Source of the DNA: Mustelus asterias
Taxonomy: Eukaryota
Direction: 5' to 3'
DNA: 64,000 bases
NCBI RefSeq assembly: GCF_964213995.1
Contig: NW_027591003.1
Location: 1-64,000 of the forward strand
The notes under the pieces are model-generated. The model was not told where the DNA came from, made no database searches, and was given only the letters and a program-made list of their open reading frames with translations. Positions 24,357 to 56,652 of this stretch are shown here, piece after piece; position 1 is the stretch's first letter; each line of letters opens with the position of its first letter. The position numbers and the translations under genes were made by a program.

Positions 24357-25055
24357 GGTTTTAGAAGAGGAGGATTTGCAGTTTGGAAACTGAAACCAAA
24401 TATGATATCGAAACCTGCTGGAGTTAGCCAATTTATTGTAACCTGAATATCATTGTGTTTTGAACGTGGACGGAAAAAGCACCGTTTTTAGGGGAGAGAA
24501 CCTGTACACATGGTCTGTGTGTGGACAAGACTTCAGCCAATCATCCAGCCTTTCAGAACATAATTGCAGTCACAACAGGGAGAAGCTGTGGAAATGTGGG
24601 GACTGTGGGAAGGGATTCGATTACCCACCCCAGCTGGAGATTCATCGGGGCAGTCACAGTGGGGAGAGACCATTCACCTGCTCCCAGTGTGGGAAGGGAT
24701 TCACTCAGTCCAACAGCTTACATATACACCAGAGAACTCACACTGAGGAGAGGTCATTCACCTGCTCCCAGTGTGGGAGGGGATTCACTCAGTCAAACAG
24801 CTTACATATACACCAGAGAACTCACACTGAGGAGAGGTCATTCACCTGCTCCCAGTGTGGGAGGGGATTCACTCAGTCAAACAGCTTACATATACACCAG
24901 AGAACTCACACTGAGGAGAGGTCATTCACCTGCTCCCAGTGTGGAAAGGGATTCATTACCTCATCCCATCTGCTGAAACATGGGCGAATCCACACTGGAG
25001 AGAGGCCGTTCACTTGCTGTGTGTGTGTGAAGAGATTCACTCAGTCTTCAAACCT
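24357..25055 (+). pseudogene. C2H2 (Kruppel-type) zinc-finger gene, terminal exon, truncated probable pseudogene
   Basis: Acceptor ...AATTTCCCAG at 24356. ORF 24460-25260 has one degenerate finger (Cys to Trp), five complete fingers and a seventh cut after FTQSSNL. No in-frame ATG (GTG at 24466); eroded TEERSF linkers. Confidence 0.85.
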
Positions 25056-25114
25056 CTTTATATGCCCTGTTTGCCCTGTCTTTATATGCCCTGTTTGTGA
25101 ACAGAATTCTCACT

Positions 25115-25151
25115 CACCTGAAGAAGGGGCTTGGAGCTCCGAAAGCTTGTG
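25115..25151 (+). ncRNA. Minimal hammerhead ribozyme, second copy, in a 5'-clipped Penelope end (25077-25247)
   Basis: Same sequence as 12550-12586. Confidence 0.7.
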
Positions 25152-27659
25152 TGGCTTTTGCTACCAAATAAAGCTGTTGGACTTTAAGCTGGTGTTGTTA
25201 AACTTCTTACTGTGTTTACCCCAGTCCAACGCCGGCATCTCCACATCATGTTCTGCCTGAGTCGGAGGTGGGAGAAGATTCCATCAAGAGGAAATTGAAT
25301 GGGAAGCTGAAGGGAAAATATTGACAGGGTTACGGGGAGAGGGTGGTGGATTGGGAATAGTGAAACTGCTCTTGCAGTGTGTCGATCCAGGCTTGACGGG
25401 CTGAATGGCCTCCTGTGCTGTCACCGTTCTATGATTCACACACAAGTTAACTTCTCAGTGTCTATTAGGCCCCACTCGTTCCTCCATGATCAGTTCCAGC
25501 ATTTCAAGTTCAGATCCCAGTACTTTTTAGTTGGGGCATTGAGGAGTAAAACAGAAATAGGAATGAGAGTGTCGGTGCGCTTATGGTTTTGTATTTCTTT
25601 GTGTGTGTGTGTGTGAGAGAGAGAGACAGTTTCTAAGTGTGTGCAAGTGTCTATTTCATTGTGTGTTTCTGTGTGTGTGATTGTGTTTCTCTGCGTGTGT
25701 CTGTGAGTGAGTGTGTGTCTGTGTCTGTGTGTGTGTCTGTCTCTGTGTCTTTGTGCATGTGTGTCTGTGAGTGTGTGTGTCTCTCTGCGTGTGTGTTTGT
25801 GAGTGTCTGTGTGTCTCTCTCTTTGTGTGTGTGTGTCTATGAGTGTGTGTGTGTGTGTCTGTATCTCTGTGAGTGCGTCTGTGTGTGTGTCTATGAGTGT
25901 GTGTGTGTGTGTGTTTGTCATGAACTGTTTGAGTGGGGGAGCAGGCTCGATGGGTCAAATGGCCTCCAACTGCACATATTTGAGATTCAAATACATTGAN
26001 NNNNNNNNNNNNNNNNNNNNNNNNNNNNNNNNNNNNNNNNNNNNNNNNNNNNNNNNNNNNNNNNNNNNNNNNNNNNNNNNNNNNNNNNNNNNNNNNNNNN
26101 NNNNNNNNNNNNNNNNNNNNNNNNNNNNNNNNNNNNNNNNNNNNNNNNNNNNNNNNNNNNNNNNNNNNNNNNNNNNNNNNNNNNNNNNNNNNNNNNNNNN
26201 NNNNNNNNNNNNNNNNNNNNNNNNNNNNNNNNNNNNNNNNNNNNNNNNNNNNNNNNNNNNNNNNNNNNNNNNNNNNNNNNNNNNNNNNNNNNNNNNNNNN
26301 NNNNNATATTTATTGACCATTTAATGTGACTGAATGCTACACATCCTGGTTTGCCGATGACACAAAACATTAGACAGCATTGTAAGCAGCGTAGCTGGAA
26401 ACATTACATTGCAAAGAGTTATTCATATTTTGTACATGGACAAAGCTGGTGGAGAGGTTTCAGTGCAGGGAAATGTAAACTGACACAACTTAGATTTAAA
26501 AGGGATAGAACAACGTACTTTAATAAATGATGAAATGACAGAAACAGTGGAAGCTCCAAATGTCCAGATATTTCACAGCTGAATTCGCACAAAACACACA
26601 GCAATGGATCTGATATTGTGGAATTGTTGTAAATGTGGTTAATCTCAGTACGGAGGCTGTCTTCATGTTACAATGTTAATCTGATCACTCTCATCAAAAC
26701 AGGGTCAACATTTCTGTACAATGTGAGTGAATCATCAGCTCAAATAGTTCAGGTTCAATGTTTAAAATAACCAGTCACTTTTCTGTGGCTGCTTTGGGAA
26801 TGTCAGTGGAATGTAGTTTACAGTCAAGTGTGAACAATTGTATTGGGGAATAATTGGAAGCAGTTTCCATTGAGAGCTTCCTGCATTCTGGAAATGTGTG
26901 TGATCCATTCAGAGATAGGAAATGGACGGATGAATAAAGATGCAGTTTGTTGTTAATTACATGAGATTGTCTGCCTTGAAGATTCACAAGTTCCATGTGC
27001 TGAGAGAAAGGAATGATTAAACAATGTCTATAATTCAAATCCTTCAGACAAGTGAAAAAGCAGGAGAACAACTGAATCCACAAACGCTGCCACAGACAGT
27101 ATTCGAAGCTTCAACTTCATGTTTGAATGTGAAGGGCTGATTGAAATAAACAGGAGGCCACACTGGGATGCTGAGCAATTTGATTCCTGTTTTTCCTAAA
27201 CTTCAAAATAAAAATCTGTGATGAAACATTCCTTGGACAGAGCAGAGGGAATTTTACTCTGTATTTCGCCCATTCCAGTATTTGCGTTGGGAACATTTGA
27301 TGAACAGTGCAGATTAAACATTATTCTTAACCGCTGGAATTTAAGTTGGGGGCTGATTTAATCAAACATTGAAAATAATGAGGGAAAGGGAGAGGCTGAT
27401 AAAGAACAAGTTTTTCTGCTGGCTGGGAAGTCCAGGATTTGGGAATATTTGAATGTTAGCCTCAGTTTAGAATTTTAGAATTGTAGAAATGGAAACATTG
27501 CCAGATGTGGTGTGGAGTTAGTTTGAAACAATCTTCTGCAAATGGCTATTGATGCTCAGTCACTTGTTATTATTTTAAATCTGGGGTTGATAGATTTTCC
27601 TTCGTCCAAGGGGTTAAGAGACAGAGAGTTAGATCACAGATCAGCCAAGATCTTATTGA

Positions 27660-46250: not shown

Positions 46251-46840
46251 AGGGCAATAGCAGCAGCACAGTCTCTGCCCAAAGGCTTCCCCAGTTCAGC
46301 TGCTCAGAGACACTGGGAATGTCTTCAAGTGGAAACTTCAGCTTCTCACATTCAGCCCCTGTGTTCAGTCATTGTTTCCGAGACAACCTCTGTAGTCACA
46401 TCACAAACAACTTGTTCACATTGAAGGCCATGGCAATCTGGACCATTCGGCTTCAAAGCCATTGAGCTTTGAAATTTCAATTGAAATGTTGGAGATGAGA
46501 GTTTATCGATGCAAGTCATGTTGCATGTGGAACGCTCACGATGCCACAATTAGAGCGGTGCAGACATCTCACAGGGTTGTGTGACTGGAGGAGATGTCAG
46601 AGACGGGTTGGTTAAATATAGAGGGACACGGTCTGAAGCTAAGTTTTGGGTAAAAGATGGCAGTAATGTTGTGACATTAATTTAGCTTCAGATCGTTGCT
46701 GGGGAGGGGGATAGAGAGGTTGGGGAGCGATGTTTGTATTGGGGCAATCTCTCTCTCTCTCATCATGTATAGATATGAATCCATCTCTCACTCTCTATCT
46801 CTCTTTACCCATTGTCTCCAGAGTCTTGTGAAGGCGCAGA

Positions 46841-47680
46841 CCGGCGGAGAGGGGGGCTGTGGACGCCGGGGTGACCAGAATCGGGGACGTGCTCGATGGC
46901 GGAGGAGCGGGCTGGATGAGTCCCCCCGTGCTGGCTGAGCGCGCAGGGACGTCCGTATGGCGCGCGGCCAAAGCCATCCTAGACCTTAGGACGGTCGCGC
47001 TCGGCCCCGAAACTGCACGCAAACTTGAGACGGCGCAGGCGTGCGGTGGGATCCCGCCCGAGCGTTCCCCTGTTCGGGCGGAATTCCACATTGGCCCAAA
47101 GCCTCAGCCCCCTCCCCTGGGTGAGGAGCCCCACAGCCTGAGCCGCCTCGCGGAAATGCCCTCCGTGCCTTTTTCTACCGCGCGGAGGCGTTTCCTGTGC
47201 GGGCTGCTGCTGCACACCCTCCACTACCGCCTCCTCGCCTGTCGCCCGGATACACCTTGGCGGGCCTTGTTGCCGCCGGGCGGCGGAGGTCCCCGCTGGA
47301 GGTCCCTCTACGGAGGGATCTCCCCCAATTACGTCGGGGACCTGGAGTGGAGGGTGATGCATGCAGCAGTTCCGCACAACCGTAGGGTTCACTGGTTCAC
47401 GGGCTCCGAAGACTGCCCTTTCTGTGGCCTTGTGGAGTCCGTGGACCATGTCTATGTTGAGTGTCTTAGGCTGCACTCCCTTTATGTTTTTCTAAAGATC
47501 CTTTTATTGATGTTTTGTTTGCACTTCAGTCCCACGCTCCTGATCTACGGACACCCGGTGCGGAGAGGGGAGGGTCGGGATGGCGACCTCCTCGTGAACC
47601 TGCTCCTGGGCCTGGCGAAACGCGCCATTTACCGGTCCAGGCAGCGGGCGATCGAGGGGGCCGTCCATCCTGACTGTGTT
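46841..47680 (+). mobile_element. Tx1/L1-clade retrotransposon ORF2 C-terminal fragment (zf-RVT-like)
   Basis: ORF 46859-47725: DLEWRVMHAAV...CPFCGLVESVDHVYVECLRL...LLLGLAKRAIYRSR; CpG-rich; truncated at both ends. Confidence 0.9.
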
Positions 47681-48380
47681 CGTATGAGTGAGAGAGAGCA
47701 TGGGAATGTGTGTGAGACGAAGTGAGAGTGTACGGAAGAGGGAATGTGAGAGGGATAGTGCATGTGTGTGTGTGAGAGAGAGAATGTGTGCGCGAGACTG
47801 TGCTTATGTGAGAGACTGTGTCTGTGTGTAAGAATGTGTGTTAGAGTGTGTGCATGTTCTATGTTTGTGAGAGAGTGATTGTGAGAGAGCCAGTGTGTGA
47901 GAACAAGAATGTAGAGGTGTGAGATAGTGTGCGCAAGAAAAATAGAAATATGTGCGTGTGTGTGAGAGCGAGAGATGCGTGTGCAAGAGGAATTGTGAGA
48001 GAGCATGTGAAGAAATGTGAGACAGCTTGAGCGTGTGTGACAGAGAGTGGAAGAGAGAGAGTGCATGTGAGAGTGCGTGCGCGAGAGTGTGAGACTGTGC
48101 TTATGTGAGAGTGTGTGTCTGTGTATAAGAGAGAATGGGTGTGTGTGTGGGGATGTGAGCGCTTTTGTGTATGGGGATGTGAGAGATTGATGGAGAGAGC
48201 GAGACGATGTATGTATTTGTATTGAGAGAGTGTATGAGTAACGTGAGAGAGAGAATGTGTATGGGTGTGTAAGAGAGACCGTATGAGAGAGAAAGTAAGT
48301 GTGAGTATGTATGTGTGTGTGTGTGCATGTGTGAGAGAATATGAGAGTATTTATGTGTGTGAGAGTGTGTGATGTGTATA
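47681..48380. repeat. Degenerate GA/GT simple-sequence tract
   Basis: Directly visible. Confidence 0.9.
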
Positions 48381-51300
48381 AGTTTCTATTTGGCTGATTC
48401 AGTCTGGAAAACACACTCACTCCACACATACTCACCCATTCACACAGTAAGTGGGAGTGACAAGTGAGCACAATACGGAGCGCGGGCCAAGGGTTGGAAA
48501 AACATTTAAATCTTTCGCAATTCGTCGCAATTGAATAATTTCCTCTTTCCTCAATGAGGGAAACCTGTAAAAACTCAAGAAATTTGACACAATCCAGGGC
48601 AAAGCCACCCACAGGATTATCCGCCCCCTCATTCACCCTATTCTCTCTCTCCATCACTAACAAGCAGTGACAGTAGTGTGTATTATATACAAGACGCACT
48701 GCAGCAACTCACCAAGGCTCCATAGTAAACACTGTCCAAACCCGTTGCCTTTATATCCTAACAGGATAAGGGCAGCAGCCACATATGAACACTACCACCT
48801 GCAAGCTCCCCTCCAAGACACACACCATCCTGACTTGAAACAATACCTCAGTTCCTTCTGGGTCAAAATCCTGGAACTTCCGCCTAACAGCACGGCGGAT
48901 GCCTGCAGCATATTGATTGCAGTTATTCAAGGATGCTTCATATCAACACTTTCTCAAGGAACAATTATTGATGATTAAAGCTTCTGGCCGAGCAAATGAC
49001 TCTAAAATAGCTTTAGAAGATTAAAAATAAGATGCAAATGAATTTGAACCTTCAACTGTCATACCAAACAGGTCATGGACTGCTTTACTACGGAGCATAA
49101 TATAGTAAATCTCACTTTGTATTTGCTCATCGAACATTCCCAAGGCCGGTACATGACTGGTTAAAAATCATCCAAATCTCCCTCTACAATCTGACGTTTC
49201 TGCTCTCTCTGATGGTCACAATATGCTTTAGGGATCTCATTTCTGAGACGCCGAGCCAAACATCAAGTCAAACTGTCACATTTCTCACAGATACCAGTTT
49301 ATTGAAGAAATAAATCAAATTTCACTCCCTGAAATACAGCAGAAGGAACCAGCAGTTTTACAACCAGTCAGGCAGTTTCCTGGCCCCAACACGGTGACCA
49401 CGCGCGCAGAAACAGAACAGACACAAACGGTGCAACAATCGATTTTCCAGCGGGTAGGGATGATCAATCAGTCAATTTAATTCAAACTGTTTGATTCTAA
49501 TTGATCAATGATCAATTTACAACAGAAAATCAATAACCTCTTTTAAATAAAACTGATATTCATTTCAAAACTCCTGTCGATTTTTAATTATGTCTCTCTG
49601 CCTGTCTCACTTCTCGAAAACTATGTAAAAATGTAATTTCGCTGAAAATTAGGAATCAAAAATAACAGATTCAGGACAGTTCAATGTCCCCGACAGAGAT
49701 ACAGTGACACAGTAAGGATTAAATAAACCAAGAAACATTTACATTGAAAATCATTACCTGATTCGATCTAATTTCTTAATTAAATGTAATCAACAAAATA
49801 TTCGAGGTAAAACACCTTATCGAGCTAAGCATAGCTGATGAAAGAAAGGTTTTGTTTCTGAATTCATTTTCGATACAATTAAACATTCTCTGAAACGGAT
49901 GATACTTTGCACGCCCGTGCATTATTCAAGGTATTTTGTTTTGAATTAATTAGCACCAATATTATATTTTGTTTTGTTAATTGCCGGTTACTTTTCCTGT
50001 TAGCTGATTTGTACTCCCTAATAAAATCAGTTTTCAATCATTCAAAACTTTCCCTGCCTCGAACATTGTGAAGTAATTAGGTTCCAATTAAATATTAAAC
50101 GATAAACTTCAAATTACTGAATGGAAAGATTCAGACATCTGTAATTCATTTGCTTCAATCGAATAACATTGTCATGTTTTTTCATTTCCACTTTTACTCC
50201 AAATGCCTTATTATAACCTGCAAACGTGTTAAGAATGCATGTTTCTGACTTTGTATATACTGTAACGGCCTGGCAGTTTGAGGTCAATGAAGCTGCTTCC
50301 GAGATTTAATAATTTGGACCATCCATATAATTTAATTACTGAACATATTGTTTAAATTAAGAAGTTCTGAATTAAACAATGAAAAACACAATGAGGACAA
50401 TTGATTCAAATCCTCTGCAACACTGAAACATGATGCACAAAATAAGTCGAGACTTTCTCTTCAGTATAATATTTAATACTAATTAAACACAATGCTCAAA
50501 TAGAATCAATTCTTCCATTCTGTCATTTATTCATCCAATAATTCTATTCTATGTTCAGCAGTAATGGGAGACAGGATGTTATTATTAAATGCAGCGCAAA
50601 TATTACTCATATAAAAATATGATAATATTATAAAAAATTAATTAATTGAATTTCAAGTCTTAAATTGTAAATCTCGAGCCAGTTTCTGTTGACACCTTAC
50701 GACAATTCAAACACCATTATATGAACAATTGTTTAGTGTTAGCGAATTCCACCTGTCAGAAAACTGTGTTCACTCTGTCAAATTTATTTAAACTGTGAGA
50801 TTCTAATTGATCAATTTTCCAACTACAACAACAAAAATCAATAACTTCTTTTAAATTAAACTGATATTCATTTCAAAATTCCCTTCGAATTTTAACTATT
50901 TCTCCCTGTCTATCTCAAATCTCGAAAACTAGGCAAAAAATATTTTTTTTTCTGAAAATGTGCACATCAGATATAACCGATCCAGGGTAGTGTAATGTCC
51001 CTAACAGAGATACAGTGACGCAGTAAGAATTGTAATTCATGATTTACTTTAATCTGCAAGCATCAGTTAACATGAATAAAATGCTCAAATATATATTTGT
51101 TTTATTTTTTCCGATACCAGTTTGTTTTATCCTGACAAGGATGTTTAAACGCAGTTTGTTTTTTTCATTTAGCGGGAAAAAGTGTAACCGCTCAGGATCA
51201 CCGAGTTGAAACAATACAGAAACAATTGAGAAACACCAAACCATTTCACAAATTTTGAGATGAGATTAGTGATTAATTATCTCTGCATCCAACTACAAAT

Positions 51301-53251
51301 TACTTGGAAGGAATGCTGCGCCTGCACAGAAACAATGTAATAATCGGGCACAAAAATTGCCAAATAGCGTTTTATTGCCAATTATTCACCAAAACTCATA
51401 TTTAAGTGAATGCGAACTTCATCGGGGATATAACAATTAATGCAAAGTATCTTGTTGAACTGAGCGCTGCTGTGGAAACAGCATGTTATCAGTGAAATAG
51501 TTTCTGGAATTATCACAAAATATTTCCAGCCGAGAAACTTTTTTGGTCATGTTAATTGTATGCAAAGCACAGCAGAACTATTAAAGCCGATTAATGCGAA
51601 ATGATATGAATAGAAAATAATCTTTTGTGAATATGTAGTTATGTTACCGATTAATAACAGTTTGATTTATATTAATTTTACTGTCAAACTTGTTAATGAG
51701 AAGTTTGTTTTTGCAGCAACTACTTAGTGTCCGATTGAACGTTGTAAGACATGATTTATTTTAATTTCTAAGAGTTAGTTAAAATTTATAAAAATGCTGT
51801 AATACCTTTATTTTATTTCTTTCACAACCTGCTTATTTTCTTCCTACAAGGATTTTCAAACTCATAGATTATTTGCATTTAACCAGAAAACGTGTAACCG
51901 CTCAGTGCCACCGAGTTTAAACAATGCAGAAACACCAAAACATTTCACACATTTTAAACATTCTTAGTGACCTAACAACAGAACCTCCTCAACAGAAACA
52001 CACCAAAACACATCAATGAGGGAATGAATCCGTTTCACGGGGACGCAACTCAATTATCCATTCAACAAAATCAAAAATATGATTGCAAGGAAATCTCAAT
52101 ATTCAATCCGGTAAACCAGCTCGTCACCAAATATATGAATGATTGAACTAAACAGAAATTTGGAATAAGAGCAATAGCATTGCGAGGAGGTGGAATATGT
52201 CCAACAAATTAATATTGAAATTTTACCACATTCTATTCATATTGGGTCATATTTCAAACAGATTTCAAACATATTTAAATATTGGGTGGGTAAAAGCTGC
52301 AGCCGTCAGATGCCACCGAGGTTAAACATGGCATGTATCCCAAATTGTGAATGCAGTGGCAAACTATGTTTTGGACGAGTGGCATAAACCGTGGTTTGGT
52401 TTAACCTGCACTTATCAGCTCCGATTTAAAAAAAATACAAATACAATAAAGCCTGCCTGATTTCTGTCTGCAGGCACACGTCAAGTAGTTTAAAACCCGC
52501 AGACTGTTTGTATTCAATCACAAAATGTGTAACAGCTCAGTGTCACCGAGTGTAAACAATGCAGAATCTCCGAACCATTTCACAAATTTTACTTATTCAA
52601 AGTCACCCAGACAGACAACCTCCTCACCAGAAACACGCAGCACTGAGGGACTGAACCCCGGTTCATGCAGAAGCAGCTCAATTCTACAAACAGTTGCAAC
52701 AGAATCAAATTTCACATTGGCAGAAAATCTCAATTTAAAATCCAGCCAACCTGACCATCACCAAAGCAACTAATGATTAAAATGAGCACAACAATGACAT
52801 AACAAAACCAGATTGTGATTAAGCGGAACATGTTCGCAACATTAAAGCAGAAACTTTAACACATTTTGTTAATATTGGGTTAGATTTTAAACACTTGTGC
52901 AGTAGATGGTGCAACTCGCAGCCACTAGATGTCACCGAGATTAAACATTGAAGAAACGCCGAACTGTTTAACAAAAGGAAGGCATTTATAGTAACCCAGC
53001 CACACAATGTCCTCAGCAGATAAACACCAAATCACAACAAGAGACTGAATCACTCAGTATCATCTTTTGTCAATTAACAGTAGAATTCTATAACCCCCAT
53101 TTTAAGCAGGATCACATGAAACATTGAAAAGATTTTCAGCACAGAATCCACCAAACCACATTACATTGAACGAATGAATTAATAAAATCGAGAAAAAGTA
53201 TAAAACAAAAACTCAAATAAAACACTGACTATTTAAAGGCATGGTTCTTAC

Positions 53252-53301
53252 CTGCAGTCACCGTCACCATGGTCCCTTGTCCCCAGTAGCCCCCCAGTTA
53301 T
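53252..53301 (-). CDS. IGHJ: Germline-joined D2-JH segment of an Ig heavy-chain cluster
   Basis: ATAACTGGGGGG-C TAC TGG GGA CAA GGG ACC ATG GTG ACG GTG ACT GCA G|GTAAG = YWGQGTMVTVTA with a phase-1 donor; preceded by a 12-RSS. Confidence 0.9.
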
Positions 53302-53329
53302 CACAGTGAGACACAGCATGACAAATACT
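53302..53329 (-). other. 12-RSS 5' of D2-J
   Basis: Plus strand CACAGTG (53302-53308), 12-bp spacer, ACAAATACT (53321-53329). Confidence 0.92.
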
Positions 53330-53629
53330 GTGCCCGACTGCTAACTGTTTAATTTCACTGCTGTCTCAAAAATCTGATTCTGCCTCATCCACGAGCGAAT
53401 GAGTGAGATATTTCAGCTTGTCCTGGTCATTGTATTTATAAAGGGGATCGGAATGCTTTTAAACTCTCTGTGTAGATTTAGCATATCGGTAAATATAGAT
53501 TTTATGGGAAGATTTTTATACCTTTTCACAAACTAATATTACTTCCACACATTATTTCACTGAAGCCGCGTTTACTTTGAAAATCCTGCCGTGATACTGA
53601 TTACCAATTTGAGCAATCTCTTTCCATGA

Positions 53630-53712
53630 GGTTTTTGTATGAGGATGTCGCTGTGCTCAGCACTGTGACCCCCCACTGCTGTATCACAGTGACAGACACT
53701 CGCACAAAAACT
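53630..53712 (-). other. IGHD: IgH D1 segment (coding 53668-53684, ATACAGCAGTGGGGGGT) with 5' 12-RSS and 3' 22-RSS
   Basis: Plus strand GGTTTTTGT-22-CACTGTG-[17 nt]-CACAGTG-12-ACAAAAACT; open in all three frames. Confidence 0.95.
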
Positions 53713-54083
53713 GCACTCACTCTCTGTTCAGTACTGCCGCTCAATATGTACTTCAAATAGACCATTATTTCGATGTAATTTACAATTTATGCAGCAGTTT
53801 ACAAAACACAATCTAGAAACACCTCCTCCAAGTCTCAGAAATAATAAAGCGAGAGTTATATCCAGGTGTGTAATTGCAGAAACTGTTAACACTAAATATA
53901 AACAGAGTGAAAAGCTCAGCCCGTTATGTCTGTGTGTTTTCTTGGTTTAATGTTTAATTTTCACTAAGTTAGGTTTGTCAGAAGCAGTTTGTGTTTTGGT
54001 TCTGGTCACTGTCGTTAATACTACATTTAAAACAAGCACTGACCTTCAGGTTATGATGGAAGTTGTTGAATTCCCTCTCGAGC

Positions 54084-54122
54084 TGTTCTTGTCCGGGTCC
54101 AACCCTGGTTCCTCTCGCTGTG
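54084..54122 (-). other. 23-RSS of VH
   Basis: Minus strand CACAGCG, 23-bp spacer (54093-54115), ACAAGAACA. Confidence 0.92.
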
Positions 54123-54427
54123 GTCTCTTGCACAGTAATAGATGGCGGTGTCTTCGGTCTTCAGCCTCGTCATTTCCAAAGAGAAGATGTTGCTTGAAGT
54201 GTCTTTGGACGCACTAAATCGATCCTTAATTGCTGGGACGTAGTTGTTGCTAGATGAAGAGTAGTAGTAAAGCAACCACTCCAGCCCCTGTCCGGGAACC
54301 TGTCGGATCCAGTGCATGGAGTAGCTGCCAAGATCGAAGCCGCTGGTTTTACAGGTCAGTGTCAGGGAGCCTCCGGGACGCCCGGTCTCTGCCTCTGGCT
54401 GAGTCAACACAACCTCCGACTGGACAC
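54123..54427 (-). CDS. IGHV: Ig heavy-chain variable segment, shark IgM-type VH exon
   Basis: Acceptor TTTTTACAG|GT; (G)[51 protein letters not shown]...[11 protein letters not shown]; conserved Cys/Trp/YYC; no stops. Confidence 0.97.
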
Positions 54428-54551
54428 CTGTAAAAATAGATCAAAGGATTAATTTTGGTGACATGATTGCTGACTCTGGAACATTCCAGAGACAGACTAA
54501 CATTTTGATACAGTGACAATGAGGAATTGGACAATAAAAAATACGACTTAC

Positions 54552-54597
54552 CGGATAAGAAACTCAACAACAAACTGAGAGAAATCGCCGACCTCAT
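54552..54597 (-). CDS. IGHV: VH leader (signal peptide) exon
   Basis: MRSAISLSLLLSFLS+G, 46 nt, donor G|GTAAGT; 124-bp intron; phase matches the V exon. Confidence 0.95.
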
Positions 54598-55998: not shown

Positions 55999-56652
55999 GG
56001 AATGACTTGGCGTTTATTGGTAGGAATGTCTTGGCGTTTATTGGTAGGGGGATTGAATTTAGGAGTCGTAGCGTTATGTTGCAACTGTACACAACTCTGG
56101 TGCGGCCGCACTTGGAGTACTGTGTGCAGTTCTGGTCCCCACATTACAGGAAGGATGTGGAGGCTTTGGAGAGGGTGCAGAGGAGGTTTACCAGGATGTT
56201 GCCTGGTATGGAGGGGAGATCCTATGAGGAGAGGCTGAGGGATTTGGGATTGTTTTCGCTGGAAAGGCGGCGGCTAAGAGGGGATCTTATTGAAACATAT
56301 AAGATGATTAGAGGTTTAGATAGGGTGGATAGTGATAGCCTTTTTCCTCTGATGGAGAAATCCAGCACGAGGGGGCATGGCTTTAAATTGAGGGGGGGTA
56401 GTTATAGAACCGATGTCAGGGGTAGGTTCTTTACCCAGAGGGTGGTGAGGGATTGGAATGCCCTGCCAGCATCAGTAGTAAATGCGCCTAGTTTGGGGGC
56501 GTTTAAGAGATCCGTAGATAGGTTCATGGACGAAAAGAAATTGGTTTAGGTTGGAGGGTCACAGTTTTTTTTTTTAACTGGTCGGTGCAACATCGTGGGC
56601 CGAAGGGCCTGTTCTGCGCTGTAATGTTCTATGTTCTATGTTCTATGTTCTA
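55999..56652 (+). mobile_element. Young 5'-truncated CR1 LINE
   Basis: Uninterrupted ORF2 C-terminus to 56549 (LYTTLVRPHLEYCVQFWSP...FFTQRVVRDWNALP); (TGTTCTA)n tail; ~24-bp tandem duplication at the 5' end. Confidence 0.92.

What the first reader, a model, noticed from the sequence alone, without database searches (positions are those of the whole stretch)
53252..54597. Partly pre-joined IgH cluster: V - D1 - germline-fused D2J
Seen: the JH core is preceded directly by a D-like 12-mer (ATAACTGGGGGG) and a 12-RSS, about 300 bp from D1. There is no separate D2 3' RSS, D2-J interval or J 22/23-RSS. Known: elasmobranch IgM clusters are V(23)-(12)D1(22)-(12)D2(12)-(22/23)J, and germline-joined variants exist. 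Inference: a RAG coding joint was fixed in the germline. The 12/23 rule still allows V-D1-D2J or direct V-D2J joining.
Basis: partly seen in the sequence, partly recalled or inferred. Interest (0 to 1): 0.8.

Follow-up and report, generated by a model that had tools for sequence, protein, structure and literature searches.

The report
Shark antibody gene with pre-joined D2-J
In this shark-type antibody heavy-chain gene the last two gene pieces (D2 and J) are already fused, most likely by an inherited cut-and-join event in germ cells, which is a known habit of shark antibody genes; this copy has lost its constant region, but an identical, complete copy lies elsewhere in the same genome.

Summary
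Observation confirmed: minus-strand IgM cluster L-VH(23)-(12)D1(22)-(12)D2J. Against the closest unjoined sister cluster, 404 nt are gone (both RSS and the D2-J interval); D2 lost 3 nt, J lost 7, and no N or P base is needed. The '12-mer' is 9-10 nt of D2 plus J's own Gs. The same joint lies on contig C143 with intact Cmu1-4 and TM exons; the window copy lacks Cmu and is a mosaic of C143 and C1012 types (real recombinant or mis-join, unresolved). Germline origin is likely (0.85): two SNV-distinct contigs carry it, no unjoined copy of the locus exists in the assembly, no hypermutation signature, and the genome holds 13 distinct joints, one shared by diverged paralogs and seen in a public run. 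It is not proven: no run bridges this joint, and V-D-DJ is a known somatic intermediate. Partly joined shark IgH clusters (VD-J, VDD-J, VD1-D2J, VDJ) are long known; a D2J-only germline form was not found in 9 searches. The scan noted this joint on another piece of this genome and D-J fusions in another genome. Minor variant.

The parts
54552..54597 (-). Leader exon (MRSAISLSLLLSFLS), GT donor at 54551-54550
54123..54427 (-). VH exon (end of leader + V), open frame, ends YYCARD; elasmobranch IgM VH
54084..54122 (-). VH 3' RSS, 23-nt spacer; heptamer and nonamer as in unjoined clusters
53685..53712 (+). D1 5' RSS, 12-nt spacer
53668..53684 (-). D1, 17 nt, identical to D1 of the unjoined sisters L003 and L004
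53630..53667 (-). D1 3' RSS, 22-nt spacer, perfect consensus
53302..53329 (+). D2 5' RSS, 12-nt spacer, now the only RSS in front of J
53293..53301 (-). D2 remnant (9 nt; 3 nt trimmed from the 3' end); holds the in-frame TAA at 53300-53298
53252..53292 (-). JH remnant (41 nt; 7 nt trimmed from the 5' end), reads GYWGQGTMVTVTA; GT donor at 53251-53250
49841..51841 (.). 2-kb zone of the J-C intron identical in C971, C143 and C1012: the switch from C143-type to C1012-type sequence lies here
47676..47689 (.). End of similarity to complete IgM clusters: the J-C intron breaks off 5.6 kb after J; no Cmu follows in the remaining 47 kb (shared with C1012)
56006..56651 (.). About 647-nt young repeat insertion upstream of the leader; its junction marks this locus (only C143 and C971)

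Best explanation
This is an elasmobranch IgM heavy-chain cluster in which D2 and J are fused by a clean coding-type joint that was likely made by RAG in a germ cell or very early embryo and then inherited. Inferred steps: RAG paired the D2 3' 12-RSS with the J 23-RSS, 404 nt were excised, the ends were trimmed by 3 and 7 nt and ligated without visible TdT addition. Shown: V, D1 and the four remaining RSS are intact, so by the 12/23 rule a B cell could finish the gene in two steps (V-D1, D1-D2J) or one (V-D2J); this is predicted, not observed. The D2 frame is locked: at least 2 nt must be trimmed to remove the TAA, and products would end in (L)GGYWGQG. The productive gene would be the twin on C143 (Cmu1-4, secretory tail, TM1 open); the window copy lost Cmu through an exchange in the J-C intron or is an assembly mis-join, and cannot make an IgM chain from its own cluster.
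For: Joint geometry: both breaks next to heptamers, both RSS removed, 0 N, 0 mismatch against L004-type D2 and J. Two contigs carry it that differ by 2 single-base substitutions in 81.2 kb and have different 3' flanks. The locus-specific insertion junction occurs at 2 places only, both fused, so the assembly has no unjoined allele of this locus. No hypermutation signature: 2 private substitutions in 1,489 nt and 0 in 976 nt. The genome holds 16 joined loci with 13 distinct joints, all at RSS borders; 12 of 13 parse without N bases (6 exactly, 5 with one mismatch, 1 with three), matching the 'little evidence of TdT activity' of germline joints in Lee 2000 (PMC2193156). One VD1D2 joint is shared by C1007 and C1179, only 93.4% alike over 8.4 kb, and stands letter for letter in run X4 at depth 16: joints in this assembly can be inherited. 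Reviews list partly joined germline clusters including D2J joints.
Against: No laid run shows this joint: 0 of 4 runs on L004 and 0 of 4 on the window (five different runs in all), though these contigs also drop L004's own private alleles, so the test is weak. V-D-DJ is a real somatic intermediate in nurse shark lymphoid cells (PMC2435157). The two contigs may not be independent: C971 is a mosaic and may reuse C143's reads. The joint lies in a run of six Gs, so G additions by TdT cannot be excluded; in a toy simulation 9-32% of junctions with a mean of 2-4 N bases still parse as zero-N against their own ends. One of 13 joints (C105/C597) does not parse without added bases. Expression of the cluster was not shown.
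Confidence: 0.85

Rival explanations
1. The joint is somatic: a V-D-DJ intermediate from a lymphocyte or thymocyte whose DNA ended up as the consensus of this locus.
For: [quoted passage not shown] No public run confirms the joint. C971 could be built from the same molecules as C143.
Against: It would need one clone to dominate the locus in a 941-kb contig; no unjoined allele of the locus exists in the assembly; two SNV-distinct copies; no N bases and no hypermutation; V-D-DJ is among the rarer somatic forms.
Confidence: 0.08
2. The deletion is inherited but not made by RAG: an ordinary deletion through short G-rich homology between the D2 and J ends.
For: D2 and J share TGGG, the break lies in a G run, no P nucleotides are seen at this joint, and these clusters recombine often.
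Against: A TGGG-microhomology deletion would leave three Gs, not six; both ends fall within 3-8 nt of heptamers; all 13 joints in the genome end at RSS borders, and two (C242, C166) parse with P nucleotides.
Confidence: 0.04
3. The fusion is an assembly or consensus artefact in a collapsed multi-copy region.
For: About 55 near-identical clusters; C971 is a mosaic contig in a segmental-duplication zone.
Against: An artefact would not place both ends at RSS borders with typical trimming; the joint is identical in a long contig; a second, different D2J joint exists on C124.
Confidence: 0.03

Closest known systems
Partially germline-joined IgM clusters of horn shark and little skate (VD-J, VDD-J, VD1-D2J / VD-DJ, VDJ); passages read in PMC5192425, PMC2193153, PMC3308330, PMC4279169; original report (Kokubu et al. 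1988) recalled, not read
   Same: IgM minicluster with RSS and interval cleanly removed between two segments in genomic DNA; D2J joints are listed within VD1-D2J.
   Different: Here only D2-J is joined; V and D1 stay free with all their RSS. This V-D1-D2J form is not among the germline forms in the passages read (the spelling 'V D1-D2J' in PMC2193153 is ambiguous but parallels 'V DD-J', so it most likely means VD1-D2J).
Germline-joined nurse shark NS4 (kappa) light-chain genes, Lee et al. 2000 (PMC2193156; abstract and sections 3, 17, 20 part 1 read)
   Same: Recent joint with a nearly identical split sister, RSS fully excised, J trimmed, little sign of TdT.
   Different: Heavy chain, partial join, two somatic steps still open; no P nucleotides at this joint; germline status there was shown by Southern blots and other animals, here only inferred.
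Somatic V-D-DJ (1R) intermediate of nurse shark IgM, Malecek et al. 2008 (PMC2435157; passages and section 10 read, supplements unreadable)
   Same: Identical configuration; shows that D2-J can be the first join because shark IgH joining has no strict order.
   Different: There it is confined to lymphoid cells and junctions show trimming plus N/P addition; here it is the assembly consensus of a locus and needs no N.
IgM1gj of nurse shark (passages in PMC5192425, PMC4279169)
   Same: Germline-joined IgM heavy chain.
   Different: IgM1gj is fully joined and lacks Cmu2; the C143 twin is partly joined and has four Cmu domains.

Membership tests
Elasmobranch IgM minicluster | One VH, D1, D2, JH in one orientation within about 2 kb, RSS 23-12/22-12/12-23 | tested here: met
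   (D2 3' RSS and J RSS present in sisters, deleted here)
Elasmobranch IgM minicluster | Cmu1-4, secretory tail and TM exons downstream of J | tested here: not met
   Not in the window copy (no C exon between J and the contig start); met in the twin on C143
Partially germline-joined IgH cluster | Two segments fused with both RSS and the interval removed, ends trimmed as in V(D)J joints | tested here: met
   404 nt removed; D2 minus 3, J minus 7
Partially germline-joined IgH cluster | Remaining RSS intact and 12/23-compatible | tested here: met
Partially germline-joined IgH cluster | Joint present in non-lymphoid or germ-cell DNA, or in several animals | tested here: inconclusive
   Assembly evidence favours it; five public runs laid show no bridging contig but drop minority alleles
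Partially germline-joined IgH cluster | Little or no N addition | tested here: met
   0 N needed; G additions inside the G run cannot be excluded
Somatic V-D-DJ intermediate | An unjoined allele of the same locus dominates the animal's DNA | tested here: not met
   Locus marker found only on the two fused contigs; raw reads of the animal not available
Functional (expressed) partly joined IgM | Transcripts with this V and the fixed (L)GGYW CDR3 end | not testable with these tools
   No RNA holder listed; protein search gave no sequence above 83% identity

The most novel reading that the evidence does not exclude
The D2J joint is very young, perhaps still segregating in the species, and the complete C143 cluster is expressed: germ-cell RAG acts on IgH without order and without TdT often enough that one genome carries 13 separate heavy-chain joints of four kinds beside near-identical unjoined sisters. 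The locked frame with a leading stop would then shape a distinct short-CDR3 IgM repertoire, and the window contig would be a real Cmu-less allele made by unequal exchange in the J-C intron.
Probability: 0.25. Interest if true: 0.55.

Novelty: new variant of a known kind. Interest (0 to 1): 0.33.

Why it matters
Germline joining of shark Ig genes has been known for decades, so the class is not surprising. What is useful: Lee et al. 2000 wrote that heavy-chain joints were too diverged to dissect; here the joint can be read base by base against a sister cluster differing at 14 of 1,489 and 2 of 976 positions, and the genome supplies 13 joints, 12 of which need no N bases. That makes two old questions testable with simple PCR: whether RAG still edits IgH in shark germ cells (and without TdT), and whether partly joined heavy-chain clusters are used. 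It also completes the list of one-step germline forms with D2-J first.

Tried and rejected
Inter-cluster joining (D2 of one cluster to J of another): suggested because the 5' half is closest to C140 and the 3' half to C71:7.06 Mb; rejected because L004 (C71) is close on both sides (14/1,489 and 2/976) and 5'/3' discordance is common among unjoined clusters. Somatic hypermutation in V: of 10 positions where the window differs from both sisters, 8 are alleles found in other clusters; only 2 are private. Window contig wholly redundant: rejected, its first 41 kb is not identical to C969 or C1012 and 30.6-32.4 kb has no identical copy among 40 scored candidates; 41.5-43.6 kb is identical to C969. 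Whether C971 is a true allele/paralog or a mis-join through the 2-kb identical zone stays open (about even). Public runs: 23 listed, best share 0.52, no RNA holder listed; 5 runs laid (X1-X4, X17), none bridges the joint; all 40 displayed 'other letters' (of 128; 88 not shown) are alleles of this genome's clusters and 33 are the majority allele, so these contigs collapse variants and the blank is uninformative. Protein search for expressed products: 23 hits of 25 candidates, none from this cluster (only lengths 53-172 searched). D1D2J (V-DDJ) germline joints: 0 by exact pattern. Literature: nine searches found no germline V-D-DJ; two key reviews (Hsu 2016, Matz 2021) were not held, Kokubu 1988 and Harding 1990 were not seen, and the junction supplement of PMC2435157 could not be read, so the somatic N-length distribution used is an assumption. 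The ORF at 46832-47698 gave no Pfam hit.

Full report
Observation. The minus strand carries a leader (54597-54552), an open VH exon (54427-54123), a 23-RSS, 12-RSS/D1/22-RSS (D1 53684-53668), 300 nt between the RSS, a 12-RSS (53329-53302) and then 50 nt that run from a D2-like start into JH and a GT donor. V is an Ig V-set domain whose best relatives are shark IgH V segments at 83-74% identity. The window is G000:C971:1-64000 of a 3.68-Gb assembly.

What the normal cluster looks like. A DNA search (40 of 92 candidates scored) returned 40 loci; 37 have about 400 nt between D2 and J and three do not. Germline D2 is mostly ATAACTGGG(G)TGG followed by a 12-RSS; J has a 23-RSS and starts ACGCCAT or ACTACTT. 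Exact patterns over the whole genome find a free D2 at 45 places and D2 running into J at 3: C971, C143 and C124 (lower bounds, since diverged loci such as L015 and L036 escape the pattern).

The joint. The nearest unjoined cluster on both sides is L004 (C71:7.06 Mb), at 14 differences in 1,489 nt upstream and 2 in 976 nt downstream. Against it, 404 nt are missing (454 versus 50 nt from D2 start to J end; one search printed 405 through an off-by-one). The joint parses as D2 minus 3 nt plus J minus 7 nt with no N, no P and no mismatch; with the four-G type of D2 it has one base of overlap. Because the break lies in a G run, added Gs cannot be excluded; in a simulation with assumed trimming, 32%, 17% and 9% of junctions with a mean of 2, 3 and 4 N bases still parse as N-free.

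The window copy and its twin. C143 carries the same cluster followed by open Cmu1-4, secretory tail and TM1 exons with normal splice sites. The window copy follows C143 exactly from 49,841 to the contig end at 131,072, with 2 substitutions in 81.2 kb, but from about 44 kb to 51,841 it equals C1012, an unjoined cluster, and like C1012 it breaks off at 47,676-47,689. No C exon lies downstream of J in C971 or in the 80 kb of C1012 examined; the only Cmu set in C971 is upstream (110-122 kb) and belongs to the neighbouring cluster. The first 41 kb are the contig's own sequence, 96-99.6% like other members of a duplication family. C971 is thus either a real allele or paralog made by exchange within the 2-kb identical zone, or a mis-join there; I cannot tell. 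Intron mosaics are common among these clusters.

Germline or somatic. The genome holds 16 joined loci: 3 D2J, 6 VD1, 6 VD1D2, 1 VDJ, 0 D1D2J, with 13 distinct joints; 12 parse without N (6 exactly, 5 with one mismatch, 1 with three), 1 does not. The lenient parser is weak for single joints (55% false N-free at mean N 3 with one mismatch) but 12 of 13 is hard to reach under that assumption. One VD1D2 joint is shared by two contigs only 93.4% alike and appears letter for letter in run X4 at depth 16, which shows inheritance for that joint. Against: no contig of five runs laid bridges this joint. Those contigs show only alleles of this genome's clusters (40 of 40 displayed sites, 33 the majority allele) and lack L004's own private alleles, so they collapse minority variants and the blank carries little weight. 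In nurse shark V-D-DJ is a somatic product of lymphoid tissue, absent from red cells and among the rarer forms (PMC2435157, passages and section 10).

How it likely works. Inferred: RAG cut at the D2 3' 12-RSS and J 23-RSS in a germ cell or early embryo, with trimming and no evident TdT, as Lee et al. described for light chains (PMC2193156, sections 3, 17, 20 part 1). Shown: the four remaining RSS equal those of unjoined clusters. Predicted: V-D1 and D1-D2J, or V-D2J directly, complete the exon. The frame is fixed and starts with TAA, so at least 2 nt must be trimmed. In a toy model with assumed trimming and N, productive joins fall from 0.24-0.25 (unjoined) to 0.13-0.19 (via D1) or 0.14-0.20 (direct), and CDR3 shortens by about 3 residues via D1. 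Only the C143 copy could give an IgM chain; expression is untested.

Comparison with what is known. Reviews list VD-J, VD-DJ and VDJ (PMC5192425, passages), 'V DD-J, VDJ, V D1-D2J' (PMC2193153, passages), and about 50% joined loci (PMC3308330, passages; PMC4279169, passages). Germline D2J joints are thus known; a cluster with D2J as the only joint was not found in nine searches, but the primary horn shark and skate papers and two reviews were not available and a supplement was unreadable. PMC12227049 (passages) and PMC2191167 (abstract passages) added nothing on this form. Earlier AI notes of this scan describe this joint on another piece of the genome and a D-J fusion in another genome.

Verdict. 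Real feature; RAG-type D2-J joint, likely germline (0.85); a small new variant of a long-known class; the window copy is Cmu-less and of uncertain assembly status, while a complete twin exists. Interest 0.33.

Noticed in passing
G000:C124:526757-526811 (L026, L103): Second, independent V-D1-D2J cluster, about 88% identical to the window, with open Cmu1-4 and TM1. Its joint parses as a D1-like D2 plus J with one mismatch, but also contains CACAGCA, the D2 3' heptamer sequence, so a deletion through GCA homology is an alternative.
   Followed up: partly
G000:C166:443077-443138 (L106): Fully joined, in-frame VDJ (CARHVQQWGMGYW) with an untrimmed V end plus P-like bases and four open Cmu exons: candidate expressed germline-joined IgM.
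   Followed up: partly
G000:C1007:3279-3327 and C1179:56303-56351 (L129, L130): Same VD1D2 joint in two paralogs 93.4% alike and in public run X4: a clearly inherited VDD-J cluster.
   Followed up: yes
G000:C667:195399-195439 (L132): V joined to a single short D followed by the D2-type 3' RSS; may be a direct V-D2 join that skipped D1.
   Followed up: partly
G000:C105:81136-81194 and C597:55889-55947 (L127, L128): VD1D2 joint with apparent non-templated bases, the one exception among 13; the two contigs are 100% identical over 10 kb, so probably one locus assembled twice.
   Followed up: partly
L004:1588-2377, run X4: A D1-D2-J joint (V-DDJ) at depth 3.6 in one run, absent from the assembly: somatic or private to that sample.
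   Followed up: no
window 56006-56651: Young repeat insertion with a GTTCTAT tandem tail; at least 38 copies at 98-100% identity elsewhere in the genome, so recently active (LINE-like label recalled, not tested).
   Followed up: partly
window 46832-47698 (+): 289-codon open frame at the break where Cmu is lost, cut off by a GA/TG-rich repeat; resembles the C-terminus of a Tx1-type retrotransposon ORF2 from recall, no Pfam hit.
   Followed up: partly
window 49460-53030: Degenerate direct repeats of about 635-710 nt and 1,308 nt spacing in the J-C intron; they overlap the zone where cluster types switch and may promote exchanges.
   Followed up: no
G000:C971:110208-122269: Constant region of the upstream neighbour cluster, a diverged IgM subclass (Cmu1 73% identical to C143's); its J lies just beyond the contig end (C143 about 704.1 kb).
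   Followed up: partly
window 24442-25257 (+): C2H2 zinc-finger array open frame inside the segmental-duplication zone downstream of the cluster.
   Followed up: no
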